A stretch of 57,594 nt of DNA from an uncultured Prolixibacteraceae bacterium (lineage in GTDB: Bacteria; Bacteroidota; Bacteroidia; Bacteroidales; FEN-979). A model generated the notes under the pieces. It was not told the origin of the DNA, did no database searches, and saw only the letters and a list, made by a program, of their open reading frames with translations. Below, piece after piece: positions 20,079 to 57,594 of this stretch. Every line of letters begins with the position of its first letter. Positions within the stretch are counted from its first letter, which is position 1. Both the position numbers and the translations under genes were made by a program. Where the stretch lies: positions 1 through 57,594 of the forward strand of contig CAYHCQ010000004.1 in the NCBI GenBank assembly GCA_964355115.1, read 5' to 3'.

Positions 20079-21386
20079 TTACTTGTCCCGATTATCTATG
20101 AATTTCAGTGATTTGCGGCCTGATTCAGGAAATTGTATCCTGTTGATCTCTTCGGGAGATTTGAAATTAATCAGAGGCGCCACCCGCAATTTTGCCCGGA
20201 AATGGTCTTTGATATCTTTTTCCCGTTCTTCTGCAGGTTCCCTGGTGGCGACATGTATCAGGATCTCTTCGGTGCCTATTTCGTTGGTATAGACTTCGAC
20301 GATATAGCCGGAGATGAAGTCAATGTTATCAAGGATATCATACAAGGCAGGCGGGTAGAGAGTAGTCCCTTTGTACTTGATCATTTGGCTTTTCCTTCCC
20401 ACAACGGGTCCGAGGCGCATTGTGTTGCGGCCGCACCGGCAGGGTTCCATGTAGTGCGCACATACATCACCTGTGCGGAAACGAAGCAACGGCATTCCTT
20501 CAACACCAAGGGTGGTAACAGTGACCTCACCCAGTTCACCCTCATTAACAGGTTTGTCTTTATCATCGAGAAATTCGACAATGATCAGTTCAGGATGATG
20601 GTGGCCACCGATGCCCTCTGAACATTCGGCAAATGAGGTAGCCATTTCGGTGGATGCGTAGGTGGAATATAGTTTTAAAGGCCATTGTTCCAGAATTTTC
20701 CTGCCAAGGGTGTTGAGAGAAAAGTCTGGGTTACGAAGAGGTTCACCAATACAAATTGCCTTTTGCAGGCTGCTGGAGCGATAGTCGATATTATGCTGCT
20801 CTGCATATTCAATAACCTTTAGAATAAATGATGGTACTGCAACAATAGCGTTGGGTTTAATCCGCATGATGGTATCCCACTGCAGTTCCGGAATCCCGTT
20901 TCCGACGCGTACAATTCCTGCGCCAAGCATCCGGATGCCAAGGAAGTAGGCAAGTCCTGCCATAAACCTGCGGTCGAGGGTAATCATCAACTGGTAAATA
21001 TCCTCTGAGGAGCCACCTGCACAAACAAATGAGATGGCTTCGTTATAAGCCAGCCGATCCAGGTCCTTATCGGTCATTGAAAAGGTTACCGGATCACCGA
21101 GTGTTCCTGATGTTGTGATATAGTCGACAATTTTTCCCTGCGGAACGCAAAGGAAGTCATCATTGTGCTCTTGCAGGTCGCTTTTACCAGTTACAGGAAT
21201 GTTTACCAGGTCGTCGATTCCCCTTATTTTACCAGCATCTATTCGATTACGGCGAAACAGGGAGGAGTAGAACGGAGAATTTTTACTGAGAAATGGAAGC
21301 AATTCACGGAGTTTTTCATCCTGGAATGCCTTAATCTCCTTCGTTGACTGGCGCTCAATTTGTGGAACGAAGGTGGAATGGATCAT
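20079..21386 (-). CDS. Phenylacetate-CoA ligase-like adenylating enzyme (PaaK / F390 synthetase family)
   Basis: 435 aa. Motifs: ITTSGTLGDP (AMP-binding P-loop), YASTE, RFRTGD, and a C-terminal ACT-like tail as in PaaK. Confidence 0.85.
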   Translation of the reverse strand: MIHSTFVPQIERQSTKEIKAFQDEKLRELLPFLSKNSPFYSSLFRRNRIDAGKIRGIDDLVNIPVTGKSDLQEHNDDFLCVPQGKIVDYITTSGTLGDPVTFSMTDKDLDRLAYNEAISFVCAGGSSEDIYQLMITLDRRFMAGLAYFLGIRMLGAGIVRVGNGIPELQWDTIMRIKPNAIVAVPSFILKVIEYAEQHNIDYRSSSLQKAICIGEPLRNPDFSLNTLGRKILEQWPLKLYSTYASTEMATSFAECSEGIGGHHHPELIIVEFLDDKDKPVNEGELGEVTVTTLGVEGMPLLRFRTGDVCAHYMEPCRCGRNTMRLGPVVGRKSQMIKYKGTTLYPPALYDILDNIDFISGYIVEVYTNEIGTEEILIHVATREPAEEREKDIKDHFRAKLRVAPLINFKSPEEINRIQFPESGRKSLKFIDNRDK

Positions 21387-21403
21387 AAGAAAAAAACTTG
21401 GTG

Positions 21404-22123
21404 TTAGAACTTCAGTCCGACCAGAATACGGTAGGTGGAAACGTCGATGGTACGGTCATTGGGTTTCGTTTCGCTAACATTGTCGTAGGTCACATTCCCG
21501 AAATTATATTGTGCCGAAAAAACAGCAATTCTGTAGCGGAGGCTGATGCTGAACTCATTCTGAAGGTAGGTTACTCCGTACTTTGTCAATCGTTCATCGC
21601 TTATATTACCCCAGTCTCCGTAGTAATAGCAAAAGTTGGCATTCAGCTTATAACTCAGGTCTATCATGAGCTTGTCGATGGGGTTAATTGTGATAACAGG
21701 ACCGAATTTCTGTCCGCCAAAATAGTAATAATGTTCGGCAACATTTGTTTGGTCGCCGGTCGGATTTGTAGAATTAAAGGATACGGTAAGAAATGTCGCA
21801 TCGATCCCGGCACGGAGATGATTGTTTGCAAAGGCAGGTCCGATGTATATGAGATATCCGACATCCATACAGGCGCCGATCTTCGCGGGCAGGTATTCCA
21901 GTTCGACGACAGGAATTTCAGACTTATCAATAAAGGTTGTCCCTGTCGAAAATGAACCTGTCGGGAAAGAGGGTCCGAATTTCCAGTAAAACCCGCCGTG
22001 TATTGCGTTGGGTATAACCGGTTTCTGAACTTGCTGAGGCTGAGTCGCCTGCTGATCCTGGGCCTTTATAAAAATCGGAAGGCAGAGAAGGATTGCAAGG
22101 AGGATTGTTTGCGGGCTTTTCAT
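21404..22123 (-). CDS. Outer-membrane beta-barrel protein
   Basis: 239 aa. Has a signal peptide (LLCLPIFIKAQ), alternating aromatic/hydrophobic strands and a C-terminal beta-signal ending ...ILVGLKF. Confidence 0.65.
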   Translation of the reverse strand: MKSPQTILLAILLCLPIFIKAQDQQATQPQQVQKPVIPNAIHGGFYWKFGPSFPTGSFSTGTTFIDKSEIPVVELEYLPAKIGACMDVGYLIYIGPAFANNHLRAGIDATFLTVSFNSTNPTGDQTNVAEHYYYFGGQKFGPVITINPIDKLMIDLSYKLNANFCYYYGDWGNISDERLTKYGVTYLQNEFSISLRYRIAVFSAQYNFGNVTYDNVSETKPNDRTIDVSTYRILVGLKF

Positions 22124-22193
22124 AAAGTGAATATTAATGACTCTGGATTAGTAATTTCAAAATTACAAAAAAAACAATTGCTAAAGGAAGTTG

Positions 22194-23264
22194 TCAGGGT
22201 ACGAGGGTGCGCTGATAACGAAAATAATCCATATATGTTGGCAGGCCTTCTACGATTTGCCGTCGGTCCTCTTCACAAACCAAAAACGAATTTTTCCGGA
22301 AAGTTCCGTTGGATTCAAGAAAAGCCTCTATTTTCTCTAAAAGGGAGGAGGAACAGGGCAGTCCGATGGCGGTGTAGATACGCTTTATCTCCTCCGCCGG
22401 ATTGGCTTCAAGGTCTTCGAACCGAACGGAGGTATGACGACTTTTATCCAATGCTGCCAGGTCCTTTGTGATAGTGTTATGCATGGCCTCAATACCTGCA
22501 ACAACATCACCGGTCTTCGGTTTACAGAACAGATTATTGAGGGAATTCTGCTGCTGAACAATATCCCACATATTTATCGTTGATGGTACAACATCTAAAG
22601 GATTACGTCCTATGTGGATGAATCTTGCCTCCGGGAACAACTTGTCAAGTATCGGGATCCGCAGTGAATTGAAGGGATTTTTTGATACGATGGTTTTCCC
22701 GGTTTTAAAATAGAGTTTCCGGTAAAAGGTTGAAACAGCTTTTGACCAGTGTTCGATTTTCCCAGGGGGCGGCATGAAATCTCCCTCCCGAAGCAGGAAG
22801 TAGTTCCGATTTTTCGGAAACACAATATTTTCGAGGGGAGAGCAATCCGTGATCCGGTAAATAGCATATTCATCCTCCTGCGGCTCATCCATTCCAAGCT
22901 TCACCATATCCATAGGCCTGTGCTTCCCGACCATGGTTTTGAATATTGGTTTGTAGTAGTTATAGGAAACCAGGAAACTGTCAGGCACTGCAACCTGGAA
23001 GAGGGTGGGAGCAGCGAGGTTGGGATCGAGGCTCATCAGCTGATGCAGAAATGTTGATCCGGTGCGCCAGTGTCCGATAATAAATATGGGATCGGCGGGG
23101 ATTGGAGTTTTATCAATTGCGGATGAGTACCTGACCTTTTCAATCAGTGAGAAAAGCCCCGACCACAGTGAGCTTTGAATAAGAAACAGTATTCTGAGAA
23201 TTGCCTGTGGGTTTGAACTGATCCTGTTCCTCCTGATAAGACGAAACAACTGACCGGATTTCAT
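22194..23264 (-). CDS. Sulfotransferase family protein
   Basis: The 5'-PSB motif IIGHWRTGSTFLHQLM is present, plus a later RNPLDV... region. The track ORF starts at a TTG (23291). I prefer the ATG at 23264 (MKSGQLFRL...), so the start is uncertain. Confidence 0.8.
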   Translation of the reverse strand: MKSGQLFRLIRRNRISSNPQAILRILFLIQSSLWSGLFSLIEKVRYSSAIDKTPIPADPIFIIGHWRTGSTFLHQLMSLDPNLAAPTLFQVAVPDSFLVSYNYYKPIFKTMVGKHRPMDMVKLGMDEPQEDEYAIYRITDCSPLENIVFPKNRNYFLLREGDFMPPPGKIEHWSKAVSTFYRKLYFKTGKTIVSKNPFNSLRIPILDKLFPEARFIHIGRNPLDVVPSTINMWDIVQQQNSLNNLFCKPKTGDVVAGIEAMHNTITKDLAALDKSRHTSVRFEDLEANPAEEIKRIYTAIGLPCSSSLLEKIEAFLESNGTFRKNSFLVCEEDRRQIVEGLPTYMDYFRYQRTLVP

Positions 23265-23297
23265 CCCGGCTGTCAGGTAGGAGTTTTTCAAGGGTGC

Positions 23298-23588
23298 TCA
23301 GGTATTATTGATCGCTTTGGCTCTTTCTTCGGTTATAAACCCTGCAATGCTGTTTACGGAACGAATGACTTCGCGAGCCAGATTCTGGTCAGCAATGCGT
23401 ATGCCATATTCACGCTGGATGGCCATAATGATTTCGATTGCATCTACCGAATCGAGGGTAAGTGCGTTGTCACCGCCGAAAAGCGGTTTCTCATCATCCA
23501 CCTCTGCTGGGTTCACTTCGGTAATACCCAAAGTGCTCATTATAAGATTTTTAATCTCGAGTTTTAATTCATCGGAAGGTATCGGCAT
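23298..23588 (-). CDS. Acyl carrier protein
   Basis: 96 aa. Phosphopantetheine attachment motif LTLDSVDAIEIIM. Confidence 0.85.
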   Translation of the reverse strand: MPIPSDELKLEIKNLIMSTLGITEVNPAEVDDEKPLFGGDNALTLDSVDAIEIIMAIQREYGIRIADQNLAREVIRSVNSIAGFITEERAKAINNT

Positions 23589-23611: not shown

Positions 23612-24616
23612 TTACTTAATTGTTGCGGCGAGCCGTTTAAAAAATTGCTCCTCCACGTCTGCCCGTTCGGTTAACATTTCGCTAAGATGTTTCAGTTTTT
23701 CAGGTCCCAGATCACGGTTCTTCCCGATCCGGGCAGTAAAGAGTGATATCTCGCGCCACCCGTCACCTATTTCCATCAATTCACGGGAGAGGATTTTCAA
23801 CTCCGGCTTATTGATGATATCTGAGGCCTGTTGAAGGAAAGTGGCGTACATAAAACGGAATCCGGCGCCACCTGTGCCCTGATCTTCGAGCAGGATGTTG
23901 ATCTTCATGATCTCGTGCGACAGGTGTTCCGTATCTCTTGCTAATTTAGGCCAATCCATCACTTTTTTCGAAAAGGTACGGATACCTTTGACACCTAAAA
24001 AAGGGATGGGTATTTTAAGCATATTGAAGCAGGATTTCTTTATCCCCTTCCTGATGGCTGTGTCGTAATCGATATAAACGGGAACATACCTGGGATAAAA
24101 GATAAATCCTTTTGGCGACATGTTGCCCCCGGCGAATCGCCCTTTTTCCAGGGATGCTGCTTCGAGGGTAACAGTGGTGGGGAAATATGCATCGCTGATG
24201 GTGTATGTCGATCCTACCTTGCCGAGTACAGTAATGTAGTGAACATTAATATGCACTCTCTCCCAGGAGGGAAGATAATCCATGTAGAAGAAATCGACCT
24301 GGCAACCAACGGGAATCCCCTTTTCAAGCAGGTCGTCGAGGGCCTTCATCCCATCGGCAGGCTTTTTAAAATCCCTCGTCTCAAAGCGGACTCCGGTACG
24401 TTTTGCAATGTTTCTGCGTATCTGTCCCGGTTTGTTCCTCACGATAAAGGTGGGAAAGGTGAAGGCCTTCATTTTATGAAAATAGCCGAAGAAAATACCA
24501 CTGGCAATTCCAAACACGAGAGGTTCCGAGATTTCCAGTCCGGCATGGTTAAGCAGTCCGGTTACAGTACCTGACTCGCAATGGGCGCCCATTTTATGTT
24601 TGAAATTATCCACCAT
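23612..24616 (-). CDS. BtrH N-terminal domain-like (papain-fold) protein, putative ACP-dependent acyl/aminoacyl transferase
   Basis: 334 aa. The N-terminus KMGAHCESGTVTGLLNHAGLEISEPLVFGIASG resembles the BtrH_N Cys-nucleophile region. Assignment is from memory of that family. Confidence 0.55.
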   Translation of the reverse strand: MVDNFKHKMGAHCESGTVTGLLNHAGLEISEPLVFGIASGIFFGYFHKMKAFTFPTFIVRNKPGQIRRNIAKRTGVRFETRDFKKPADGMKALDDLLEKGIPVGCQVDFFYMDYLPSWERVHINVHYITVLGKVGSTYTISDAYFPTTVTLEAASLEKGRFAGGNMSPKGFIFYPRYVPVYIDYDTAIRKGIKKSCFNMLKIPIPFLGVKGIRTFSKKVMDWPKLARDTEHLSHEIMKINILLEDQGTGGAGFRFMYATFLQQASDIINKPELKILSRELMEIGDGWREISLFTARIGKNRDLGPEKLKHLSEMLTERADVEEQFFKRLAATIK

Positions 24617-25050
24617 TATTCTGTCCTCTCCTCTGTATTAACAGGTTCTGCCTGATTTTCAGCTTTTGCGTTCAACAGTTGAAGCATATCTGCGGTAGTG
24701 ACATTGAACACTGCGGAATACCTGCCCAACTCGGCAACCGTCATGGTTCCAAAATATCGCATTTCCATGTGCCTCTGAACTTTCGATGTGCGGATTCCGG
24801 TTCTTGCCGAAAGTTCTGAAATGCTTAGGTCCTCCAGTACCATATAATACTTCACCGGGCTGATCGACCCGTCGATTACCTGACCGCGCAGGCTATCTTC
24901 AAGGTTTCGCCGTTTAAAAAAATAATCGTCCAGATAATTGGCTGAAATATAGGATCCTGTCTGCATGGGGCCATAGGTACCATCCTCTTTTTCAACATAA
25001 ACGATCACCTGCTGTTCAGGGCAATCCACGAATCCATCTTTTTCTTTCAT
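24616..25050 (-). CDS. Hypothetical protein with HTH-like segment
   Basis: 144 aa. LSISELSARTGIRTSKVQRHM looks like an XRE-type helix-turn-helix. It has a 1-nt TAATG overlap with the downstream gene. Confidence 0.45.
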   Translation of the reverse strand: MKEKDGFVDCPEQQVIVYVEKEDGTYGPMQTGSYISANYLDDYFFKRRNLEDSLRGQVIDGSISPVKYYMVLEDLSISELSARTGIRTSKVQRHMEMRYFGTMTVAELGRYSAVFNVTTADMLQLLNAKAENQAEPVNTEERTE

Positions 25051-25071: not shown

Positions 25072-26262
25072 TTACTGTTTCCTGTTTGCAAAAATAACAA
25101 TGCTGACCATCATAGCAAAAACAAAAAAGGAAAGAAGCAGTAATGACCTTGGAAGAATGGTAAGAACGGTGCCTTCCCGAATAAAAATATCCAGGTAATT
25201 ATCAATTCCCCAACGAATTGGAGAAAGATAACTCAGGTATTGAATAAACTCAGGCATGATGTGAATGGGCAGAAAGGTACCACTGATAATACCCAGGAGA
25301 ACAACCATCACCGAACCGAACAATGCAGCCTGGTTGTGGGTTGATGAAACTGCGCCCACAATGGTGCCGAAACCTATGGCAGCAAACGAAGCAGCAACCG
25401 TTGCCAGGGCAATGGCTCCCCAGGAACTTCCCAACTCAAGTCCGGGCAGGCCAAAAAATGTTGGAAATGCCCAGCAACCGACAAGGAGCATGACGATGAA
25501 CTGGAGAAGGCAAACCAGAAGGTAAAGCGATATTTTCCCCGAAAGAATTGTAAGGACTCCAACCGGGAGTGTTCTCAACCGCTGGTAACCACCCTCGTTT
25601 TTTTCGCTGATAAGGCTGCCGGAAAGAGGAATTACAATAAAGAACATGGCAAACAGGATGAACCCGGGCACATTGTTCTGGATTGGACTCGGGTTTGATG
25701 CAGATTTATCATTTACTGCGAATGCTTCCTGCACTGGCAGAAGGTTTTTCAGGGTATTGCTGATCATTGTTTCGATAACGGGCTTCATATCACCGGCTGT
25801 GGCTGCAAGCAAATCTTCAATTGCGCTACGGCTTTGTGTGCCCCGGATGATGTAGGTCAGTGAATTTACAAGGGCCCTACGGTAAGCTGGCTGCAGTGCA
25901 GGGTCGACCATGATGACAATGGCTGAATCAGTGGGTTTTAAGATGATTCCGAATTTGAAATTTCCGGCTGCAAGTTGTCGCTGCACCTCTTCAATGGTAA
26001 CCTGTTTGCCTTCAACCGACCTCACTGTCAGGAACATGCCCGATGAATCCAGGTTGTTGGCCAGGCTGGCAGAAAAAGGTGAGTTCAGACCATCCGCAAA
26101 TAAAACTGGCATTACCGCTCCCTGGTTTTTCAGTGCGTTTTCCTGGGCAAGGGTGACCACCAGGATCAGGAGTACGGGCATAAGAAACAGGATTGCGAGT
26201 CCGGGCAGGTCGCGTATCAGTAGCAGAATCTCCTTTTGAAGGGTGGCCAAAAACTTATGCAT
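25072..26262 (-). CDS. ABC-2 type transporter permease
   Basis: 396 aa. One N-terminal TM, a large extracytoplasmic loop, then 5 clustered TM helices, which is the ABC-2 topology. Confidence 0.7.
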   Translation of the reverse strand: MHKFLATLQKEILLLIRDLPGLAILFLMPVLLILVVTLAQENALKNQGAVMPVLFADGLNSPFSASLANNLDSSGMFLTVRSVEGKQVTIEEVQRQLAAGNFKFGIILKPTDSAIVIMVDPALQPAYRRALVNSLTYIIRGTQSRSAIEDLLAATAGDMKPVIETMISNTLKNLLPVQEAFAVNDKSASNPSPIQNNVPGFILFAMFFIVIPLSGSLISEKNEGGYQRLRTLPVGVLTILSGKISLYLLVCLLQFIVMLLVGCWAFPTFFGLPGLELGSSWGAIALATVAASFAAIGFGTIVGAVSSTHNQAALFGSVMVVLLGIISGTFLPIHIMPEFIQYLSYLSPIRWGIDNYLDIFIREGTVLTILPRSLLLLSFFVFAMMVSIVIFANRKQ

Positions 26263-27373: not shown

Positions 27374-27437
27374 GCACACAATTTACTTCGCGAAAATACG
27401 AAGGATAATTGAAAAAAGAGGGGTATCTGATGAAGGA

Positions 27438-47113: not shown

Positions 47114-47506
47114 CTATTTGTTCAGATTTGCCGACCACCTGCAGATCATATCAACTTCGGCCTTGGTGGGTATGGCATCAGGATTCTTTTTGCGCCAGCT
47201 CTTGGTGGGCATGGCTCCCTTGGTAAGTTCTTTGCACATATCCTTTGCTTTATCAGCTTGCTTTTCGGCCGAATATTCATTCCATTTCGAAAAATTCAGC
47301 TTCATCCGGGCCATCGAACTGCCATCATCGGCATGACAGTCCATGCATGCACGCTGAACCAGCTTCAGCACACTGTCGGGAAGGGCGGTTCCGGGAGCGA
47401 TGGCAGATTTTTCATCCGATCCTCTTGCTTGCCGGGGTGTGAATAGCATAGAGCAGGCAGCGACCGTAAAAATAACAACTGCAGCGATTGTGACTATTTT
47501 TTTCAT
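47114..47506 (-). CDS. Secreted/anchored haem-binding domain protein (CXXCH)
   Basis: Start set at MKKIVTIAAVVIFTVAACS. It has a single c-type haem motif ACMDCHADDGS, about 130 aa, resembling the Haem_bd family. Confidence 0.6.
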   Translation of the reverse strand: MKKIVTIAAVVIFTVAACSMLFTPRQARGSDEKSAIAPGTALPDSVLKLVQRACMDCHADDGSSMARMKLNFSKWNEYSAEKQADKAKDMCKELTKGAMPTKSWRKKNPDAIPTKAEVDMICRWSANLNK

Positions 47507-47557
47507 GATTGTCGTATGTTTATACAAAAATAGTAAAAATAAACTTCAATACCTGAA

Positions 47558-50134: not shown

Positions 50135-50172
50135 TTTTCACTCTTAACTCTTAACTCTTCACTTTTCACTCA
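50131..50172. repeat. Tandem heptad repeat (6 units, T[CA]ACT[CT]T type) spanning the KASIII / rSAM-HADH junction
   Basis: Reads tcacttt tcactct taactct taactct tcacttt tcactca. It covers the GTG start (50132-50134), the 24-nt spacer and the TGA stop (50159-50161). Confidence 0.85.
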
Positions 50173-51951: not shown

Positions 51952-52694
51952 AGGCCTTTGTTGCGTTGTGATTCTGCCAGAGCAAGTTCGCAGAAGAGTC
52001 TAGTCTCCTCCTTCATTGCCTCTTCGGCCGGTAGTGTCCGGGCATTGCGCAGCGCCTTCATCACGGCATGTATTACAGGCAGAGGACGGTCCAGGGTCAT
52101 TTTCTGCAACAGCGAAAAGGAAAAGTCGAATAGTTTTGCCCTGGGCACGATATAATCTACAAGTTTCATCTCCAGCGCATCCTCTGCATTTATCATATCG
52201 CCGGCCATGATCATCTTTAGCGAATTCTGAAATCCGGCAAGTTCGGTAGCCCTCACAGTACCGCCCAGACCGGGAAGGATGCCATGGTTGATCTCAGGAA
52301 AGGCAAAGAGCGAATTTTCGGTACAGACCCTGATGTGAGAGGCAAGAGCGATCTCTAGTCCACCGCCGAAACAGATGCCCTGGATCGCGGAAACTACAGG
52401 TATATTAAGGTTCTCCAGGTGGCTTAATACAGCTTTTCCACCTTCCATTTTCGCTGCAAGATCCTCCTTCTCCCTGATCATTTTAAAGAGATTTTCCAGC
52501 TTTCCCCCACCCGAAAAATGCTTTCCGGCGCCACAAATCAATATTCCCTTCAGGTAGTCGTAGGAGGTCCACTTCCGGATCACTTCCAGCGGAAGGAACT
52601 CAGGATTTTCCAGATAATTCTCCGGCGGGTTGTCGAGAGTAATGATCCCGATGTCCTTGCGAATTTCCCAGCTTATCTTATCACTTTTTTCCAT
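51948..52694 (-). CDS. Enoyl-CoA hydratase/isomerase (crotonase) family protein
   Basis: 248 aa. Motifs GAGKHFSGGG, AIQGICFGGGLEIAL and FPEINHGILPGLGGT. Confidence 0.85.
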   Translation of the reverse strand: MEKSDKISWEIRKDIGIITLDNPPENYLENPEFLPLEVIRKWTSYDYLKGILICGAGKHFSGGGKLENLFKMIREKEDLAAKMEGGKAVLSHLENLNIPVVSAIQGICFGGGLEIALASHIRVCTENSLFAFPEINHGILPGLGGTVRATELAGFQNSLKMIMAGDMINAEDALEMKLVDYIVPRAKLFDFSFSLLQKMTLDRPLPVIHAVMKALRNARTLPAEEAMKEETRLFCELALAESQRNKGL

Positions 52695-52722: not shown

Positions 52723-53106
52723 TCAGTTGAGGATATTCATCTCGGCAGGGACATCACACGGCATCCGTGAGGTGTCTACGAACACTGTTTTAACTGTTGC
52801 CCTTGCTGCCGGCAAACCGGTTGTTTTGTTGAACAGCTTCTGTTCAAAAACCAGGTACGGGGCCGACCGTTTTGTCCGGGTAACCACCTCGATCTCGTCG
52901 AACAGCCTTATTTCGCGCTGGTAGCGTATATGAACATCCACCACAACGAGAAACAGACCGTTTTGGGTAAAAAACTCAAGCAGTCCGGCATCCCTGAACA
53001 ACTCCCAGCGTGCCTGTTCAATGTAGTTCAGGTAGACCGCGTTGTTGACGTGTCCGTATGAGTCGAGCTCATTCCCGCGGGCCGTTATTTTACTCCGATG
53101 AATCAT
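52723..53106 (-). CDS. Hotdog-fold acyl-CoA/ACP thioesterase (4HBT/YbgC-like)
   Basis: Start set at MIHRSKITARGNELDSYGHVNNAVYLNYIEQARW, which overlaps the upstream stop as ATGA. Confidence 0.8.
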   Translation of the reverse strand: MIHRSKITARGNELDSYGHVNNAVYLNYIEQARWELFRDAGLLEFFTQNGLFLVVVDVHIRYQREIRLFDEIEVVTRTKRSAPYLVFEQKLFNKTTGLPAARATVKTVFVDTSRMPCDVPAEMNILN

Positions 53107-53498
53107 TCGGCGACCAATTTTCCCTTGAATTTCAGAAATGTTGTGTCGTTCGCCGAAAGGGTTGCCTGAACGGAGTAACACCCTTCTTCCGGCTGCTTTA
53201 CAACCAGGTCGAGGGTGATCCCGGGGTATTCCAGCGGGCTGATCATAGACAAAAACTTTATGTTATCCGATTCAGTCAGCTTCAGTTTTTTTCCCGTTAT
53301 TGAATTCAGGGCCTCCACGATCATCTGGACCTGGCACACGCCGGGAACCACCGGGTTTCCGGGGAAATGTCCGCCGAAGATGGGATGACCGGGATCCAGC
53401 ACAAGTCCGGCAGTGTAATGCTTCAACACCACTCCCTGCGGATTGATTTCGTCGCGACCGTCGAGGGTTTTAATAGTATAAAACGTATTTAGTAACAT
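53103..53498 (-). CDS. FabZ/FabA-like 3-hydroxyacyl-ACP dehydratase
   Basis: Start set at the internal ATG (MLLNTFYTIK...). Catalytic motif HPIFGGHFPGNPVVPGVCQVQM. Confidence 0.85.
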   Translation of the reverse strand: MLLNTFYTIKTLDGRDEINPQGVVLKHYTAGLVLDPGHPIFGGHFPGNPVVPGVCQVQMIVEALNSITGKKLKLTESDNIKFLSMISPLEYPGITLDLVVKQPEEGCYSVQATLSANDTTFLKFKGKLVAE

Positions 53499-53569
53499 GA
53501 TTAAATTTTCACCTGTCAGATTAACCGTCAAAAATACAAAATGTAAAGGAATACCGGGTTGCCTAATTG

Positions 53570-54202
53570 CTATTGGCTGATCCACCCGAGTTTAATGATC
53601 AGACCTATCCCCGGATTGTAGAGGCGGATTTTCTGGACGAAGGTGCCTGTGGGATATTCAAATTCGATGCGGTATTTGTCCCAGGGATTGGTTCCCCCGG
53701 CGATTTCGGTCACATAACTGGTTTTCGGGTCAATGTAATAATAGCAGTTGCTTTTGCTCACATAAAGTACCGGTGCGCCGTTTTTTTTATCGGTAAACTG
53801 CACCAGATCATCTGTTGAAAAACTGTAAAACATCAGCGCCCGGAGATCTGCCTCAATGATTTTCAGGAGCGCTTTTTTTTGCATCGGGGTAAAAATGTAG
53901 TGGGAGATAAACCTGCCTCGCAAAAACTCCACATCGAAGATCGTCATCCCGATGTCGTTGGCAAAAACAATCCGGTATGAGGTATCTGCACTTTTTTTGA
54001 TCATTGTATAGCCGGTGAGATGAAATTCCCGGATGTCCATGGTTGTACGGAAGAGTGATTTTTCGAACATCCCCATGAATGGCGATTCCCACGACGACCT
54101 GGCAAGAGTTGCATTATTTCCTCTTAACAGGGTGCTTTTGTCGACCGGGGAGCAGCCCCACAGCAACGCCAGGAGAAGACTAAGGAATAAGGAACTTCTC
54201 AT
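53570..54202 (-). CDS. Lipoprotein of unknown function (position equivalent to the small lipoprotein of aryl-polyene clusters)
   Basis: 210 aa with lipobox LLLALLWGCS. No catalytic motif was seen. Confidence 0.55.
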   Translation of the reverse strand: MRSSLFLSLLLALLWGCSPVDKSTLLRGNNATLARSSWESPFMGMFEKSLFRTTMDIREFHLTGYTMIKKSADTSYRIVFANDIGMTIFDVEFLRGRFISHYIFTPMQKKALLKIIEADLRALMFYSFSTDDLVQFTDKKNGAPVLYVSKSNCYYYIDPKTSYVTEIAGGTNPWDKYRIEFEYPTGTFVQKIRLYNPGIGLIIKLGWISQ

Positions 54203-54824
54203 CAGCGATGGGTTGGTTGATTTTTTTTGCCCTGAACTCGATCCGGGTATAGTCGCCTGAGGCTTCGCGCATCACAAGCCTTTCAACGGAGTAGTCGTTT
54301 TTGTTGAAATAGAGGATTATTTCGCTCAGCGACTCCCTGATTTTTGAATTCTGAGGGATGAGTTTGACAGCATACCAGCTCCTTGCATCGGAATAACTGG
54401 CCTGGAATTTTTTTGGGTCCGCCAGCAGTGTTCCCTGCACCGCCCCGAGGATGATACCATTGATCTCCCGGAAAATCTTGTTCGACTGAACATTCACCTG
54501 TTTTTCTGTATTGTCGTCCTTCACCAGCATCTGCTCGCTGTTGATGACGATGAGGTAGGGGAAAGGCTCGGTATACTCCCAGCGTAGCTTTTTCTCTTTT
54601 TTAAAGTAGAATTTGCCTTTCGATGTGATCTTCTCCGACAGTACGCTCATCTCTTTCTCCTGAACGAAGTCACTTTCGATGGTGTTTGTCCGTTTGGCCG
54701 TCTCCTGCACCTTCTGCCTGATCATCTCTGCCTCTTTCGGAGGAATCTGCTGCTGTTGCTGGGCCATGCCTGCAAAGCATAGCAAGATCATCAGCAAAAA
54801 GGGAAATAGTGTTTTGTTATTCAT
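54180..54824 (-). CDS. LolA-like outer-membrane lipoprotein carrier family protein
   Basis: 214 aa with a signal peptide. The pattern SDFVQEKEMSVLSEKITSKGKFYFKKEKKLRWEYTEPFPYLIVINSEQMLV is typical of LolA-like proteins. Confidence 0.65.
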   Translation of the reverse strand: MNNKTLFPFLLMILLCFAGMAQQQQQIPPKEAEMIRQKVQETAKRTNTIESDFVQEKEMSVLSEKITSKGKFYFKKEKKLRWEYTEPFPYLIVINSEQMLVKDDNTEKQVNVQSNKIFREINGIILGAVQGTLLADPKKFQASYSDARSWYAVKLIPQNSKIRESLSEIILYFNKNDYSVERLVMREASGDYTRIEFRAKKINQPIADEKFLIP

Positions 54825-55632
54825 ACGCCGGCAAATTTACCAGTTTTTCCAATGGTACAACCTCCAGTCCCTGCTGACGGATGCTGATGAGCACCCGGTC
54901 GAGAATTTCCGCCGTCACCCGCTGCGTATCGTGCATCAGGATGATATCACCGGACTTAAGTTTGTCGGTGATGCGAAGGTATAGCCGCTCCGGATCGCTG
55001 ATGGCTGTATCAAGCGACCATCGGCTCCAGGCGATGACCGCGTAACCTGTTCTCCGCAATCCGCCACTCACCATGGGGTTGATAACGCCATACGGCGGAC
55101 GGAAGAATTTAACATTTTTCCCGGTAACCGACCGGATCAATGATTCGGTTTTCAGCAGGTCGCGGTGAATCAGGAATGGCGGCCAGAAATCCCACAGTTT
55201 AGTATGGGAATAGGAATGGTTGCCCAGGATATGTCCTTCGGCATTGATTCTCTTTATCAGCTCTTCATTTCCGGGTATTTTACGGCCGATCAGGAAGAAT
55301 GTGGCAGGAACGCCGTGTTTTCTGAGCACTTCGAGGATCGCCGGGGTAGTGTCAGGGTCGGGACCATCGTCGAAAGTGATGGAAATATTTTTGTCATCCC
55401 TGCTGCCCCGGCATATCACAGGATGGTGAAACTGCGAACAGGGCATGAACGAGAGAATTACCGGAACGATGAGGTAGGTCAATACCAGCGGGATATAAAA
55501 CCATGCCTGATATTTAAAGAAAAAGCCGGTTATCCCACCTTCACAGGGGCAGATTAGAAATCTTACCAGGTTGAACGTAAGTAAAATCAGGAAAAAGAGG
55601 AGGGTGGCCGTCCTGAAATTTACTCTTTTCAT
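54817..55632 (-). CDS. Polysaccharide deacetylase (NodB homology domain) with N-terminal TM segments
   Basis: 271 aa. NodB motifs ISITFDDGPDPD, GNHSYSH, FFRPPYG and ILMHD. Confidence 0.85.
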   Translation of the reverse strand: MKRVNFRTATLLFFLILLTFNLVRFLICPCEGGITGFFFKYQAWFYIPLVLTYLIVPVILSFMPCSQFHHPVICRGSRDDKNISITFDDGPDPDTTPAILEVLRKHGVPATFFLIGRKIPGNEELIKRINAEGHILGNHSYSHTKLWDFWPPFLIHRDLLKTESLIRSVTGKNVKFFRPPYGVINPMVSGGLRRTGYAVIAWSRWSLDTAISDPERLYLRITDKLKSGDIILMHDTQRVTAEILDRVLISIRQQGLEVVPLEKLVNLPAYE

Positions 55633-56726
55633 ACAGTGCCTGTGAGTGTAAAGGTATGTTCCAGGTTGCGGTAATGGTTCCAGATCAGGATATTTTTTAA
55701 AGGTCTGATGAATGATCCGCGGTAACGAGCCATTTCAGGAACCAGGGCATGGCGGAAGATCATGGAGGCCAGCCAGAGTGCAAAAATACCGGATGTGTGG
55801 AATTCACCGGAAAGATGCTTGAAGGCTGCGATATCTGAACCCTGAGGCAGGGTATCCATTGCTTCATGGTAAATTATATCACCTGATGGATCGCCGTTCA
55901 CTCCGAGGATGAAAAGATCGATATCGTTTACCGACAGACAATTGGCTTCAAGAAAACAGGTGATCTTGTGTAGGATCTCTTCCTTCCCGTTCGGTTTGTA
56001 TAGGGTGGTTACATCCCTGAGTGAGGCGATGGAGTGATCTGTTTTGCTTTCGGACAGCAGGAAAAATCCGGCACCTTCGCCGGCAATACTACCTCTGGTC
56101 GTATCTGCGTAAAGATCAGTAATCCCTGATGGATTCTTTTTCCAGTGGCCCAGACGCTGGGTAATGCGGAAAGCATTCGCAGTGAGTTCGTCCATTCCGC
56201 CAGCCAGAACGGTCCTTGCTTCGCCCGAACGGAGCCGGATCAATGAATCGATGAGGGCAGTCTCAAATGAAAATCCACGGTGACAATAGGTAAAGTTATA
56301 TGCGTGGCATTTGAGCAGCAGGGCAATCTGGCCGCTCACCGTGTTGTGTGTCGACTGGATAAACGAGGTAGGGGTGAGGAGTTCTTCGTTGTTTCGGATG
56401 AGCGTGGCCAGGAATTTCTCGGTATCCTCGAGGCAGCTCATCCCGGTGCCAGTTATGATTGCATCCGGCAATTCATACCCTGCATCCAGCATCCTGCAAC
56501 CTGCATCTTCAAGACAGATCTTCGCCGCCGAAATCCCCATCTTGATGATACGGCTCATCCGGCGAACCATGTCGCCTGCCACATAATCCTTATAATTGGG
56601 CTCCTGGATCTTGAAAAACTCGGGACCGGGAGGTACGATCTCATCCGGAAAACGTGAACTGTCGAGCGTTTTCTGCGCCGAAACCAGGCCGAGACCGTTG
56701 ATATATGCAGGTTTTTGTGAAATCAA
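55629..56726 (-). CDS. Beta-ketoacyl synthase-like protein lacking the active-site Cys context (chain-length-factor-like partner)
   Basis: 365 aa, thiolase-fold-like (INGLGLVSAQ..., ...ITGTGMSCLED...). There are no TACSSS, HGTGT or GHT motifs. The start is TTG, with an in-frame TAA 3 codons upstream. Confidence 0.65.
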   Translation of the reverse strand: MISQKPAYINGLGLVSAQKTLDSSRFPDEIVPPGPEFFKIQEPNYKDYVAGDMVRRMSRIIKMGISAAKICLEDAGCRMLDAGYELPDAIITGTGMSCLEDTEKFLATLIRNNEELLTPTSFIQSTHNTVSGQIALLLKCHAYNFTYCHRGFSFETALIDSLIRLRSGEARTVLAGGMDELTANAFRITQRLGHWKKNPSGITDLYADTTRGSIAGEGAGFFLLSESKTDHSIASLRDVTTLYKPNGKEEILHKITCFLEANCLSVNDIDLFILGVNGDPSGDIIYHEAMDTLPQGSDIAAFKHLSGEFHTSGIFALWLASMIFRHALVPEMARYRGSFIRPLKNILIWNHYRNLEHTFTLTGTV

Positions 56727-56743
56727 GACTATTTACGATTGAG

Positions 56744-56841
56744 TTGATAATTGATAATTGATAATTGACAATTGATAATGGACAATTGACAGTTGATAAT
56801 TAATTAACTCTTGACTCTTGACTCTTCACTTTTAACTCTTC
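56744..56841. repeat. 98-nt tract with strict 7-nt periodicity (9 TTGAYAA-type units then 5 ACTYTTN units) in the KS / CLF-like junction
   Basis: Reads ttgataa x3, ttgacaa, ttgataa, tggacaa, ttgacag, ttgataa, ttaatta, actcttg x2, actcttc, actttta, actcttc. The last units overlap the KS stop codon (56832-56834). Confidence 0.9.
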
Positions 56842-57594
56842 AAAATTATCGTCGAATTGTTGCCTCCAAACCCAAAAGAATTAGAGAGAACTGTATCAAC
56901 CGGCATCCGGAGCAACCCGGTCACCGGCCGGATATTCAGTTCCTTCATAGGAGTTGTCCAGTTCAGGTTGGGGAAGAGGCAGCTGTTCTGCATCGAGAGC
57001 AGAGAAATCACCGCCTCGATTGCCCCCGCTGCGCCCAGTGTATGACCTGTAAAAGCTTTGGTGGAGCTGAATGGGGGGACATTTTCCCCGAAAACCTTCT
57101 CGATGGCAACCCCTTCCGAGAGGTCATTGTTTTGCGTCCCGGTCCCGTGAACATTGATATAGCTGATCTGATCACACCTTAACCCGCTCATGGCCAAGGC
57201 TGCCTGCATGGCCAGTGTGGCCCCGGTCCCTTCGGGTGAAGAGGCGGTCTGGTGATAGGCATCGTTGGCGTTTCCGGAGCCGATAAGTTCGGCCAGCGGT
57301 TGTTTCCCGCTTTTTTCGATCATCTCCTCCGATTCCAGCACAACAAAGGCGGCTCCTTCGCCGATGGTAAGTCCGGCCCGATTTTCGTCGAACGGTTTAC
57401 AGCCTTCGCGGTCAAGTATCATAAGAGTATTAAAACCGTTGACAGTGAACCTGGTGGCAGAGTCTGTTCCGCCTGCAACCACACGGTCGATCATCCCGGC
57501 TTTGATCATCTGGGCCCCCAGCATCATGGCATTGGCCGATGAACTGCAGGCGGTGCTGATCGTGGTCATGAAATCCCTGATCCCTGTGTAGTCG
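56832..57594 (-). CDS. Beta-ketoacyl-ACP synthase (Cys-His-His), 5' end beyond window
   Basis: The frame stays open upstream of the track Met (my reading: ...DYTGIRDFMTTISTACSSS...). Motifs TACSSS, NVHGTGTQNND and TGHTLGAAG. Confidence 0.9.
   Translation of the reverse strand, partial: DYTGIRDFMTTISTACSSSANAMMLGAQMIKAGMIDRVVAGGTDSATRFTVNGFNTLMILDREGCKPFDENRAGLTIGEGAAFVVLESEEMIEKSGKQPLAELIGSGNANDAYHQTASSPEGTGATLAMQAALAMSGLRCDQISYINVHGTGTQNNDLSEGVAIEKVFGENVPPFSSTKAFTGHTLGAAGAIEAVISLLSMQNSCLFPNLNWTTPMKELNIRPVTGLLRMPVDTVLSNSFGFGGNNSTIILKS

What the first reader, a model, noticed from the sequence alone, without database searches (positions are those of the whole stretch)
20079..57594. Aryl-polyene/flexirubin-type lipid cluster merged with a radical-SAM-rich tailoring set: candidate for an undescribed outer-membrane lipid pathway
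The right half (about 36587-41727 and 52723-57594) has the gene set known from aryl-polyene and flexirubin clusters. That set is KS plus a Cys-less KS partner, FabZ-like DH, hotdog TE, NodB deacetylase, LolA-like, small lipoprotein, MMPL exporter, PlsC-type acyltransferase, methyltransferase and GT2-DUF2062. Interleaved in the same tightly overlapping operons are genes I do not associate with those clusters. These are four cobalamin-domain rSAM enzymes, an HADH domain, KASIII-like plus two crotonases, and a second AT-ACP-KS set. They also include a CXXCH protein, CrtI-like flavoenzyme, C45 Ntn acyltransferase, O-methyltransferase, sulfotransferase, PaaK-like ligase and BtrH-like protein. No ammonia-lyase, DarA/DarB-like pair or FabG-type ketoreductase is visible in the window, though the cluster continues past 57594. 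Class B rSAMs are known lipid-tail modifiers (hopanoid methylases HpnP/HpnR, GDGT ring synthases GrsA/B, tetraether synthase Tes). The product could therefore be a C-methylated, cyclised or cross-linked, possibly sulfated, polyene-type lipid.
Basis: partly seen in the sequence, partly recalled or inferred. Interest (0 to 1): 0.9.

Follow-up and report, generated by a model that had tools for sequence, protein, structure and literature searches.

The report
Radical-SAM-rich flexirubin-type lipid gene cluster
This is a real, widely conserved variant of the flexirubin/aryl-polyene pigment-lipid gene cluster from uncultured Bacteroidota, in which the usual resorcinol-making genes are missing and a 12-kb block of fatty-acid-type and cobalamin radical-SAM enzymes of unknown product has been inserted.

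Summary
The gene association is not chance. The same order recurs in relatives (L002, L163, L167/L168, the P0002 contig) and in 14 metagenome loci.

About half of the "unexpected" genes are canonical flexirubin parts:
- The PaaK-like ligase is FlxY, the BtrH-like protein is DarH and the small lipoprotein is LolB2.
- The CrtI-like, C45, ABC-2 and O-methyltransferase genes also occur in rSAM-free flexirubin loci.
- The "missing" ammonia-lyase (FlxA) and FabG-type reductase (FlxB) lie just beyond the contig end in relative L166.

What is new is a sharply defined variant ("class A"):
- DarA/DarB are absent.
- A ~12-kb module sits between the ApeI-like dehydratase and GT2-DUF2062. It runs TE, two crotonases, a divergent StlD/DarB-fold ketosynthase, rSAM4-HADH, a haem protein, KS, ACP, AT, rSAM3 and rSAM2.
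- rSAM1 and a second DarG/DarH-ACP-sulfotransferase set are added.
- Relatives carry a fifth, TIGR04072 ("ladderane-type") rSAM upstream.

My best inference is that the module builds or replaces the non-polyene partner without oxygen. I found no paper describing such a cluster. Verdict: new variant of a known kind, interest about 0.6.

The parts
20079..21386 (-). FlxY, a PaaK-type aryl acid adenylating/CoA ligase; last gene of the cluster
   Evidence: NCBIfam NF053551 FlxY_rubin 710.8 bits against a cut-off of 520; Pfam AMP-binding. 63-71% identical orthologues in L163, L132, L133 and L138.
21404..22123 (-). Small predicted outer-membrane beta-barrel, no family
   Evidence: No Pfam or NCBIfam hit. 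Has a signal peptide and a C-terminal ...LVGLKF. 54% orthologue at the same place in L163.
22194..23291 (-). PAPS-type sulfotransferase
   Evidence: Pfam Sulfotransfer_3 at 1.5e-29. Conserved next to ACP and DarH in L163 (50%) and L144 (46%).
23298..23588 (-). ACP1
   Evidence: PP-binding domain; DSV motif; 83% identical in L163.
23612..24616 (-). DarH-type BtrH-like acyltransferase; a second or third copy relative to the dar-operon copy seen upstream in relatives
   Evidence: NF053550 DarH_acyl 334.1 bits against a cut-off of 300; BtrH_N + DUF4872.
24616..25050 (-). DarG-like small protein
   Evidence: Weak match to DarG_fam: 48.2 bits against a cut-off of 70. 61% orthologue in L163.
25072..26262 (-). 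ABC-2 permease
   Evidence: Pfam ABC2_membrane_3.
26255..27379 (-). Phenol-type O-methyltransferase
   Evidence: Methyltransf_2 at 6.9e-47 plus the Dimerisation domain.
27438..29246 (-). 602-aa orphan protein; an accessory gene, absent from the otherwise syntenic L163
   Evidence: No family in Pfam, NCBIfam or PDB. The AF2 model is unusable, pLDDT 36.6. Absent in L163.
29300..31681 (-). CarboxypepD_reg-domain outer-membrane beta-barrel protein
   Evidence: Pfam; signal peptide and C-terminal ...WRIQF; 69% orthologue in L163.
31703..32089 (-). 128-aa conserved unknown protein, always found next to rSAM1
   Evidence: No family hit. Adjacent to the rSAM1 orthologue in L004, L163, L164 and L165.
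32121..33392 (-). rSAM1, a B12-binding radical SAM enzyme
   Evidence: Pfam; CIYDCYPC motif. Its 90%-identity cluster has 317 members. 91% identical in L163, 74% in L004, 69% in L144.
33389..35101 (-). C45 (AAT) Ntn-type acyltransferase/hydrolase
   Evidence: PF03417; NF040521 214.8 bits against a cut-off of 85. Also present in rSAM-free loci L133, L138 and L150.
35094..36590 (-). CrtI-like FAD amine-oxidase-family enzyme
   Evidence: Pfam. It follows the MMPL fusion in class B loci as well.
36587..40486 (-). MMPL/RND exporter + PlsC acyltransferase + SAM methyltransferase fusion
   Evidence: Pfam. Full-length orthologues in class A and class B loci.
40507..41727 (-). GT2 + DUF2062 glycosyltransferase
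   Evidence: Pfam.
41808..43148 (+). rSAM2, a B12-binding radical SAM enzyme; module X
   Evidence: Pfam. Best NCBIfam hit is HpnR, 128.8 bits, far below its cut-off of 650. 67-71% orthologues in L002 and L103.
43170..44618 (+). rSAM3, a TIGR04072-like 'lipid biosynthesis' B12 radical SAM enzyme; module X
   Evidence: TIGR04072 322.4 bits against a cut-off of 360. Closest solved structure is TsrM, 124.9 bits. Missing in the P0002 contig.
44615..45520 (-). FabD-like acyltransferase; module X
   Evidence: TIGR00128 fabD 141 bits; GYSMG and PYHAAF motifs.
45535..45843 (-). ACP2; module X
   Evidence: PP-binding domain. 70-89% identical across class A loci.
45876..47138 (-). FabF-like elongating ketosynthase with an intact Cys-His-His triad; module X
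   Evidence: TIGR03150 465.8 bits; ACASS, HGTST and GH motifs.
47114..47527 (-). Secreted CXXCH haem-binding protein; module X
   Evidence: PF14376; CMDCH motif and signal peptide. Conserved position in relatives.
47558..50134 (-). rSAM4 (B12 radical SAM) fused to a 3-hydroxyacyl-CoA dehydrogenase; module X
   Evidence: Pfam. Fused in P0002-P0014 and split in L002 and L167. The linker in the window is a 7-nt x4 repeat. The rSAM part is 72-87% identical in more than 100 clusters.
50159..51268 (-). Divergent StlD/DarB-fold KASIII-like enzyme; module X
   Evidence: Best NCBIfam family is StlD/DarB, 108.7 bits against a cut-off of 450. Best PDB fold is StlD, TM 0.79. Cys133 is kept; the canonical His is Asn291 and the canonical Asn is Tyr324.
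51265..52694 (-). Two crotonase-family genes (51265-51951 and 51948-52694); module X
   Evidence: ECH_1 domain. Both retain the two catalytic Glu positions.
52723..53181 (-). 4HBT hot-dog thioesterase; first gene of module X
   Evidence: Pfam.
53103..53585 (-). ApeI/FabA-like dehydratase; core
   Evidence: Pfam.
53570..54202 (-). LolB2 lipoprotein; core
   Evidence: NF053540 89.4 bits against a cut-off of 60.
54180..55632 (-). LolA-like carrier (54180-54824) and NodB deacetylase (54817-55632); core
   Evidence: Pfam.
55629..57594 (-). Chain-length-factor-like Cys-less KS (55629-56726) and its KS partner (56832 to the contig end)
   Evidence: Pfam; motifs.

Best explanation
The region is the larger part of a ~55-kb flexirubin-type aryl-polyene biosynthesis and outer-membrane export cluster. 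It belongs to an uncultured Bacteroidota (probably Bacteroidales) lineage and represents a distinct, conserved variant that I call class A.

Shown:
- The polyene and export machinery is the canonical one: FlxY, KS/CLF, ApeI-like DH, NodB, LolA, LolB2, GT2-DUF2062, the MMPL-PlsC-MT fusion, CrtI-like, C45 and DarG/DarH.
- Relatives add FlxA, FlxB, a second KS/CLF pair and the tail of the dar operon just beyond the contig end.
- Class A differs from canonical flexirubin loci in three ways. It lacks DarA/DarB. It carries a ~12-kb module X, inserted exactly between the ApeI-like DH and GT2-DUF2062. It carries rSAM1 plus an extra DarG/DarH-ACP-sulfotransferase-O-methyltransferase set.

Inferred, about 0.35:
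- Module X is a self-contained line that makes the non-polyene partner normally supplied by DarAB.
- AT/ACP2/KS build beta-ketoacyl-ACP2. The HADH and crotonases interconvert the beta-keto, beta-hydroxy and enoyl forms.
- The StlD/DarB-fold enzyme joins two such chains head to head.
- The cobalamin rSAM enzymes carry out oxygen-independent oxidation/aromatisation and/or C-methylation.
- A DarH-type acyltransferase then esterifies the polyenoyl-ACP to that partner.
- The O-methyltransferase and sulfotransferase decorate a phenol, and the Lol-like/MMPL set places the product in the outer membrane.
For: Family thresholds passed:
- FlxY, DarH and LolB2 pass their curated NCBIfam cut-offs.
- In L166, FlxA, FlxB and a true TIGR04072 rSAM pass theirs.

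Synteny of the whole cluster:
- L002, L167/L168 and the P0002 contig cover the right and centre.
- L163/L164 cover the left half.

Class split among 36 classifiable metagenome loci:
- 14 class A loci (CLF at least 50% identical) all carry module X between DH and GT2.
- 14 class B loci (CLF 36-48% identical) go straight from DH to GT2.
- DarA and DarB were found only in rSAM-free loci, four of them class B; DarB scores 599 bits against a cut-off of 550.

Linkage survives rearrangement: in L004 the order is CrtI, C45, rSAM1, unk128, TE, ECH, ECH, KASIII, rSAM4.

Evidence on the individual enzymes:
- The KASIII-like protein is closest to StlD/DarB by profile, by the only full-length PDB alignment and by predicted fold (TM 0.79).
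- rSAM4 and the HADH are fused in some lineages and adjacent in others, which argues for functional coupling.
- Module X proteins are 72-89% identical across class A, against 32-60% for core proteins.
- KS, AT, both ACPs and both crotonases keep their catalytic motifs.
Against: - No product is known, and nothing here tests chemistry.
- The KASIII-like enzyme scores far below the DarB cut-off (82.7 against 550). It has Asn and Tyr at the canonical His and Asn positions, so a StlD/DarB-type reaction is not assured.
- A DarA/DarB pair elsewhere in these genomes is not excluded; only the cluster regions were seen.
- FlxA, FlxB and the fifth rSAM are inferred for this organism from relatives, because the contig ends.
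- Some class A loci lack rSAM4 (L103) or rSAM3 (the P0002 contig), so not every rSAM is essential.
- That the hosts are anaerobes is an inference from five oxygen-sensitive enzyme types and from MAG labels.
Confidence: 0.45

Rival explanations
1. The rSAM enzymes and module X tailor the aryl-polyene chain itself, by C-methylation, cyclisation or cross-linking, and do not build a separate moiety. The extra AT-ACP-KS would extend or branch the same chain.
For: - Class B rSAM enzymes are known modifiers of lipid tails (HpnP/HpnR, GrsA/B, Tes; general knowledge and PMC13459092).
- The best NCBIfam hit for rSAM2 is HpnR.
- Module X sits inside the polyene operon, directly after the dehydratase.
Against: - The module brings its own AT, ACP, KS, thioesterase and a StlD/DarB-fold enzyme. 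That is more than tailoring needs.
- It appears exactly in the loci that lack DarAB, which suggests substitution.
- All rSAM family scores are far below the cut-offs of characterised families.
Confidence: 0.25
2. Module X plus the TIGR04072-type rSAMs form a 'ladderane-type'/anaerobic unusual fatty-acid pathway of the kind proposed for Kuenenia and Desulfotalea. It makes a separate membrane lipid and merely shares the APE-type export machinery and operon.
For: - rSAM3 is TIGR04072-like (322 bits), and the upstream rSAM of relatives is a true member (399.6 bits against a cut-off of 360).
- Geobacter and other Desulfobacterota loci combine GT2-DUF2062, ACP, rSAMs, AT, a TIGR04072-like rSAM, KS, NodB and LolA (L029, L039).
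- The proposed ladderane clusters also hold ACP, FabZ, FabF, a non-canonical FabF, a phytoene-desaturase-like gene and a B12-rSAM (PMC2649909, PMC4790861, PMC10139942).
Against: - Identities to those loci are only 26-42%.
- The function of the ladderane clusters is itself unproven (PMC10139942).
- In every class A locus seen, module X lay next to at least part of the flexirubin-type gene set.
Confidence: 0.15
3. The KS, ACP, KASIII-like and two crotonase genes form a beta-branching (HMG-CoA-synthase) cassette that adds a methyl branch to the polyene.
For: The gene types (KS, ACP, a thiolase-fold enzyme, two ECH) superficially match HCS cassettes.
Against: - The KS keeps its Cys-His-His triad; it is not a decarboxylating Cys-to-Ser KS.
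- The thiolase-fold enzyme matches StlD/DarB and FabH. HMG-CoA synthase matches only the N-terminal ~100 residues, at 32-43 bits.
- Both crotonases keep both hydratase Glu residues.
Confidence: 0.03
4. Two unrelated loci, a polyene cluster and an rSAM/tailoring locus, abut by chance on this contig.
For: None beyond the mosaic appearance.
Against: - The same order is found in 14 metagenome loci and several genome contigs.
- The genes stay linked after rearrangement (L004, L144).
- Junctions overlap or are very short.
Confidence: 0.02

Closest known systems
Flexirubin biosynthetic gene clusters of Chitinophaga pinensis and Flavobacterium johnsoniae (Schoner et al. 2014, PMC3992019), together with the dar operon (Azoarcus arcuflavin, PMC3949708)
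   Same: - FlxY, DarH and LolB2 are present in the window above curated thresholds.
- The KS/CLF pair, DH, NodB, LolA, GT2-DUF2062, exporter/acyltransferase/methyltransferase, CrtI-like and C45 genes are also present.
- Relatives carry FlxA, FlxB and the tail of the dar operon: DarG, DarH, ABC ATPase and permease, TE, KS, a hypothetical and an ACP.
   Different: - No DarA/DarB.
- Four cobalamin rSAM genes in the window, and five in relatives.
- A 12-kb FAS-like module is inserted between DH and GT2-DUF2062.
- There are extra DarG/DarH-ACP sets, a sulfotransferase and two outer-membrane barrels.
- The 2014 paper does not mention radical SAM enzymes in the canonical clusters.
Aryl-polyene (APE) clusters of Proteobacteria (ApeA-R; my own knowledge of Cimermancic 2014 and later work)
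   Same: Type II KS/CLF, ACPs, ApeI/ApeP-type dehydratases, thioesterase, LolA-like, MMPL and GT2-DUF2062; outer-membrane destination.
   Different: APE clusters have no FlxA/FlxY start, no DarG/DarH, no rSAM enzymes and no second FAS-like module.
Putative 'ladderane' lipid clusters of anammox bacteria and the syntenic clusters of Desulfotalea (Rattray 2009, PMC2649909; Javidpour 2016, PMC4790861; Dietl 2023, PMC10139942); NCBIfam TIGR04072
   Same: ACP, FabZ-type DH, FabF plus a non-canonical FabF, a phytoene-desaturase-like flavoenzyme, a polysaccharide deacetylase and B12-rSAM enzymes. rSAM3 is TIGR04072-like, and the relatives' upstream rSAM is a member.
   Different: - rSAM3 falls below the family cut-off (322 against 360).
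- Bacteroidota are not known to make ladderanes.
- This cluster has a tyrosine-derived aryl starter system and flexirubin-specific proteins.
- The function of the ladderane clusters is itself unproven.
StlD/DarB ketosynthase-cyclases (PDB 5gk0/5gk2)
   Same: Best profile family, the only full-length PDB sequence alignment, and the best predicted-fold match (TM 0.79). The nucleophilic Cys is kept.
   Different: 20-24% identity. 108.7 bits against a cut-off of 450. Asn291 and Tyr324 stand in place of the canonical His and Asn, with an invariant His296 five residues further on.
Characterised cobalamin rSAM lipid modifiers (HpnP/HpnR, GrsA/B, Tes) and BchE, TsrM, AprD4
   Same: B12-binding domain plus a CxxxCxxC radical SAM core; located in a lipid cluster.
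   Different: Every match is far below the family cut-offs. Examples are HpnR 128.8 against 650 and BchE 104 against 481. The best solved relatives score 29-125 bits.

Membership tests
Flexirubin-type aryl-polyene cluster | Aryl starter activation by FlxY (4-coumarate-type ligase) | tested here: met
   NF053551 710.8 bits against a cut-off of 520 for 20079-21386.
Flexirubin-type aryl-polyene cluster | Tyrosine ammonia-lyase FlxA and SDR ketoreductase FlxB | tested here: inconclusive
   Absent from the window, but the contig ends inside the cluster. In syntenic relative L166, FlxA scores 822 (cut-off 700) and FlxB 397 (cut-off 340), upstream of the equivalent point.
Flexirubin-type aryl-polyene cluster | Type II KS with a Cys-less chain-length-factor partner, dehydratase and ACP | tested here: met
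   56832-57569 has the Cys; 55629-56726 lacks it; ApeI/FabA-like DH at 53103-53585.
Flexirubin-type aryl-polyene cluster | Dialkylresorcinol synthesis by DarA + DarB | tested here: not met
   DarA was not found. True DarB (599 bits in L124) matches only 50159-51268, at 24% identity. That protein scores 82.7 against the DarB cut-off of 550. Neither gene is present in the class A relatives covering the whole cluster. A copy elsewhere in the genome cannot be excluded.
Flexirubin-type aryl-polyene cluster | DarG/DarH (BtrH-like acyltransferase) and LolB2 | tested here: met
   DarH 334.1 against 300 and LolB2 89.4 against 60. DarG is weak only, 48.2 against 70.
APE/flexirubin outer-membrane export set | LolA-like, MMPL exporter, PlsC-type acyltransferase, GT2-DUF2062, NodB | tested here: met
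   Pfam.
Cobalamin-dependent (class B) radical SAM enzymes | N-terminal B12-binding domain plus a CxxxCxxC radical SAM core | tested here: met
   All four proteins hit PF02310 and PF04055 and each has one CxxxCxxC motif. Cofactor use itself cannot be tested here.
TIGR04072 'lipid biosynthesis B12-binding/radical SAM protein' (ladderane-cluster type) | Score above the curated cut-off of 360 bits | tested here: not met
   rSAM3 (43170-44618) scores 322.4 bits. The upstream rSAM of relative L166 passes at 399.6, but that gene lies beyond this contig.
Ladderane biosynthesis | Production of cyclobutane-ring lipids | not testable with these tools
   There are no chemical data, and the link between those clusters and ladderanes is itself unproven (PMC10139942).
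Beta-branching HCS cassette | Decarboxylating KS (Cys to Ser), HMG-CoA-synthase homologue, ECH1/ECH2 pair | tested here: not met
   The KS has Cys-His-His. The thiolase-fold enzyme is StlD/DarB/FabH-like. Both ECH keep the hydratase Glu residues.
StlD/DarB family beta-ketosynthase | Score above the cut-off (450) and a Cys-His-Asn catalytic set | tested here: not met
   108.7 bits. Cys is kept, but the His position holds Asn291 and the Asn position holds Tyr324; both are invariant in 22 homologues. The fold resemblance holds.

The most novel reading that the evidence does not exclude
Class A clusters encode an oxygen-independent route to a new kind of outer-membrane lipid in anaerobic Bacteroidota. 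A StlD/DarB-fold enzyme and up to five cobalamin rSAM enzymes, including true TIGR04072 'ladderane-type' members, would build a cyclised and/or C-methylated fatty-acid-derived moiety that is esterified to a sulfated or O-methylated aryl polyene. If so, these abundant clusters would give an entry point outside anammox bacteria to the unsolved chemistry of TIGR04072-type rSAM enzymes acting on ketoacyl-derived lipids.
Probability: 0.2. Interest if true: 0.85.

Novelty: new variant of a known kind. Interest (0 to 1): 0.6.

Why it matters
Flexirubins are treated as markers of aerobic Bacteroidota, and their non-polyene half is made by DarAB. This study finds a widespread, strongly conserved sister architecture in uncultured Bacteroidota/Bacteroidales. 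More than 100 distinct 90%-identity clusters of the signature enzymes exist. The architecture drops DarAB and gains a FAS-like module with three to five cobalamin rSAM enzymes.

[quoted passage not shown] This cluster would add a large, phylogenetically separate set of candidates. It also links the flexirubin/APE family to the TIGR04072 'ladderane-type' clusters.

Finally, it gives a concrete, testable prediction: DarAB and module X should be mutually exclusive.

Tried and rejected
- **Genome-collection scan with an rSAM4 alignment.** It missed the 72-87% orthologues, so it gave little taxonomic information. Only L004 was useful.
- **Beta-branching cassette idea.** Rejected on active-site grounds.
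- **Exact look-up of the window's NodB.** It found only a 3.8-kb contig, and the window turned out to be a complete NCBI contig. I therefore reached the region beyond 57594 by walking along relatives.
- **The 602-aa orphan protein (27438-29246).** No Pfam, NCBIfam or PDB match. The single-sequence AF2 model had pLDDT 36.6, so I ran no fold search.
- **Rfam scan.** It found nothing, including no cobalamin riboswitch.
- **Sigma-70 promoter and terminator scan at the cluster end.** Results were at shuffle level and are not informative for Bacteroidota.
- **Literature searches.** Five searches for rSAM-bearing flexirubin or aryl-polyene clusters found no description.
- **PDB searches with the four rSAMs.** They gave only remote hits, too distant to assign a reaction.
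- **Host identification.** I could not name a cultured host. UvrB relatives are all MAGs labelled Bacteroidota or Bacteroidales.

Full report
**Observation**

I listed ORFs and scanned every gene of 20079-57594 and the flanking 20 kb against Pfam and NCBIfam.
- There is a KS with its Cys (56832 to the contig end) and a Cys-less partner (55629-56726; motifs).
- The core also holds NodB, LolA, a lipoprotein, an ApeI/FabA-like dehydratase and a hot-dog thioesterase.
- A 1299-aa MMPL+PlsC+methyltransferase fusion and GT2-DUF2062 follow.
- Four proteins carry a B12-binding domain, a Radical_SAM domain and one CxxxCxxC motif each. One of them is fused to a 3-hydroxyacyl-CoA dehydrogenase.
- The remaining genes are a KASIII-like gene, two crotonases, an AT-ACP-KS trio, a secreted CMDCH haem protein, a CrtI-like flavoenzyme, a C45 protein, an O-methyltransferase, a sulfotransferase, an AMP-ligase and a BtrH-like protein.

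Upstream of 20 kb lie housekeeping genes (UvrB, MutL, rhomboids) and a polysaccharide locus. The left border of the cluster is therefore near 20079. The window is a whole 57,594-bp NCBI contig, so the right border is a contig end.

**Which parts are ordinary**

NCBIfam now holds flexirubin-specific models.
- The 'PaaK-like ligase' is FlxY (710.8 bits, cut-off 520).
- The 'BtrH-like protein' is DarH (334.1, cut-off 300).
- The small lipoprotein is LolB2 (89.4, cut-off 60).
- The 144-aa neighbour of DarH is weakly DarG-like.

I fetched 80 metagenome loci around relatives of the chain-length factor and mapped all window proteins onto them. The CrtI-like, C45, FlxY, ABC-2, O-methyltransferase genes and the MMPL fusion also occur in loci that have no rSAM genes. 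Those loci carry a bona fide DarB (599 bits, cut-off 550) or close homologues of FlxA and FlxB. These genes are therefore canonical flexirubin-cluster content, not additions.

**What lies beyond the contig end**

I walked along relatives to see it.
- The closest relative has a UvrB 91% identical to the window's and lies on a 158-kb contig (L167/L168).
- A more distant relative is L166.

Together they show this upstream order:
- a CrtI-like gene on the opposite strand
- FlxA tyrosine ammonia-lyase (822 bits, cut-off 700)
- FlxB reductase (397, cut-off 340)
- KS and ACP
- a fifth cobalamin rSAM that passes TIGR04072 (399.6, cut-off 360) and is fused to a lipid-A-type acyltransferase in L166
- an ApeP-like dehydratase
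- one or two DarG/DarH pairs
- ABC ATPase and permease, a thioesterase, KS, a hypothetical protein and ACP
- KS/CLF, then the KS/CLF pair with which the window ends

This matches the tail of the dar operon described for Azoarcus (PMC3949708), except that DarA and DarB are missing. DarA/DarB are probably truly absent from the cluster.

**The variant**

Of 36 classifiable metagenome loci, 14 have a CLF at least 50% identical to the window's. All 14 carry the same insertion between the ApeI-like dehydratase and GT2-DUF2062. Another 14, with a CLF 36-48% identical, go directly from dehydratase to GT2-DUF2062.

The insertion (module X, window 41808-53181) holds:
- a thioesterase
- two crotonases
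- the KASIII-like gene
- rSAM4 with the HADH
- the haem protein
- KS, ACP2 and AT
- on the opposite strand, rSAM3 and rSAM2

The left half, from CrtI-like through FlxY, includes rSAM1 and its 128-aa neighbour, an outer-membrane barrel, the O-methyltransferase, the ABC-2 permease and the DarG/DarH, ACP and sulfotransferase genes. It is syntenic in L163/L164.

Linkage survives rearrangement.
- In L004 the order is CrtI, C45, rSAM1, the 128-aa gene, then thioesterase, crotonases, KASIII-like and rSAM4.
- In L144, DarG, DarH, ACP, sulfotransferase and rSAM1 sit together.

DarA and DarB were found only in rSAM-free loci: L113, L124, L125, L128 and (DarB only) L150, four of them class B.

Module X proteins are much more conserved among class A loci than the polyene core. 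ACP2 averages 83% identity, KASIII-like 76%, KS 75% and crotonase b 72%. By contrast CLF averages 50%, NodB 48%, DH 41% and LolB2 37%.

The signature enzymes are abundant. The top 120 hits for rSAM4 and for the KASIII-like protein are all at least 72% identical and come from MAGs labelled Bacteroidota or Bacteroidales. The 90%-identity cluster of rSAM1 has 317 members.

Not every rSAM is universal. L103 has the HADH without rSAM4, and the P0002 contig has one rSAM where the window has rSAM2 and rSAM3.

**Anatomy of module X**

- The FabF-like KS keeps Cys-His-His.
- The AT keeps GYSMG and the His motif.
- Both ACPs keep the Ser motif.
- Both crotonases keep both hydratase Glu residues.

These findings reject a beta-branching cassette.

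The KASIII-like protein is closest to the StlD/DarB family on three counts:
- by profile, at 108.7 bits, far below the cut-off of 450
- by the only full-length PDB sequence alignment
- by predicted fold: AF2 pLDDT 80, with StlD the top hit at TM 0.79, ahead of AbyA1, FabH, CorB/MxnB and OleA

Aligned with true DarB, it keeps the nucleophilic Cys. It has Asn291 at the His position and Tyr324 at the Asn position, both invariant in 22 homologues. An invariant His296 lies five residues further on.

rSAM4 and the HADH are fused in at least 14 protein clusters and are adjacent, overlapping genes in others. This argues that they work together.

The four rSAM proteins are remote from every curated family and every solved structure.
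- rSAM2: best hit HpnR, 128.8 bits against 650.
- rSAM3: TIGR04072, 322.4 against 360.
- rSAM4: BchE, 104 against 481.
- rSAM1: best hit 57.6 bits.
- The closest solved structures are TsrM and AprD4.

No specific reaction can be assigned to any of them.

**Mechanism**

Shown: this is a flexirubin-type aryl-polyene and export cluster, and module X plus the extra rSAM genes belong to it.

Inferred: module X appears exactly where DarAB are lacking. It contains a StlD/DarB-fold enzyme together with enzymes that generate beta-ketoacyl, beta-hydroxyacyl and enoyl thioesters on a dedicated ACP. These are the substrate types of the DarB reaction, as described in the papers read. I therefore think it most likely that the module makes the non-polyene partner, with the cobalamin rSAM enzymes supplying oxygen-independent oxidation or C-methylation.

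DarH-type enzymes would join acyl-ACPs to the partner. The phenol-type O-methyltransferase and the sulfotransferase would decorate a hydroxyl. The Lol-like, MMPL and barrel proteins would move the product to the outer membrane.

I give about 0.85 to the cluster identity and about 0.35 to this specific role of module X.

The rivals are:
- a separate 'ladderane-type' fatty-acid pathway sharing the export set

Desulfobacterota loci recovered in the genome scan combine GT2-DUF2062, ACP, rSAMs, AT, a TIGR04072-like rSAM, KS, NodB and LolA at 26-42% identity (L029, L039). The proposed ladderane clusters hold ACP, FabZ, FabF, a non-canonical FabF, a phytoene-desaturase-like gene and a B12-rSAM. There is thus a broader superfamily of APE-like clusters with cobalamin rSAM enzymes, none characterised. 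Genome-mining surveys report 'ladderane' calls outside anammox bacteria without explanation (PMC9902471).

**Novelty**

I found no paper describing rSAM-bearing flexirubin or aryl-polyene clusters. The 2014 flexirubin paper does not mention such enzymes.

The kind of system, an aryl-polyene/flexirubin outer-membrane lipid cluster, is known. The DarAB-less, module X-bearing, multi-rSAM architecture is a new variant. Standard mining tools would flag it but not explain it.

Half of the supposed anomalies are canonical, and the chemistry remains inference.

Noticed in passing
window 43146-43184, 48570-48597, 50130-50171, 56744-56840: Tandem 7-nt repeats sit at gene junctions inside the cluster.
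- TAATTGA x5.6 lies between rSAM2 and rSAM3.
- TTCACTC x6 lies between the KASIII-like gene and rSAM4.
- TTGATAA x8.3 and ACTCTTG x4.9 lie between the last KS and the CLF.
- A perfect AGGATGC x4 forms the linker that fuses rSAM4 to the HADH.

The closest relative (L167/L168) has short spacers and split genes instead. L002 has a different heptamer-periodic spacer at the KASIII/rSAM4 junction. No heptamer arrays were found in the first 43 kb of the window. The cause is unknown; candidates are slipped-strand expansion, regulation, or assembly.
   Followed up: partly
window 56479-56507; L086 10218-10245; L166 19417-19444; L167 3615-3646: A 28-nt stretch with 7-nt periodicity (GGATGCA-like) lies about 220 nt into the chain-length-factor gene, at the same position in several relatives. 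Its reverse complement is the repeat unit of the rSAM4-HADH linker in the window.
   Followed up: no
window 27438-29246: A 602-aa cytoplasmic-looking protein inside the operon has no Pfam, NCBIfam or PDB match. It is absent from the otherwise syntenic L163. The AF2 single-sequence model failed.
   Followed up: partly
window 31703-32089: A 128-aa protein with no family match is always found immediately downstream of rSAM1 (L004, L163, L164, L165). It may be a partner or substrate-handling protein.
   Followed up: no
window 517-9254: A polysaccharide locus (GT2, Wzy-like, MatE-like, Wzz/LysM, outer-membrane efflux protein, Bac_transf) has clearly lower G+C than the rest of the contig: 0.37 at 2-8 kb against about 0.46-0.49. 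This suggests separate acquisition.
   Followed up: no
window 12934-14715: Two adjacent rhomboid-family genes sit between an EEP-family nuclease/phosphatase gene and MutL. One of them carries a DUF6576 tail.
   Followed up: no
L166 6751-9084; L168 1-842: The upstream TIGR04072 rSAM of class A relatives is fused to a lipid-A-biosynthesis-type acyltransferase in L166 (777 aa). It is a standalone 452-aa protein in the closest relative.
   Followed up: partly
L168 1265-4223; L103 2-1843: DarG/DarH pairs are duplicated in tandem in some class A relatives. Together with the copy in the left half, this gives up to three DarH-type acyltransferases per cluster.
   Followed up: no
window 41728-41807: The 80-nt divergent spacer between GT2-DUF2062 and rSAM2 contains TAAATTTG, a match to the Bacteroidota TAnnTTTG promoter element, four bases before the rSAM2 ATG. 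This is a consensus match only.
   Followed up: no
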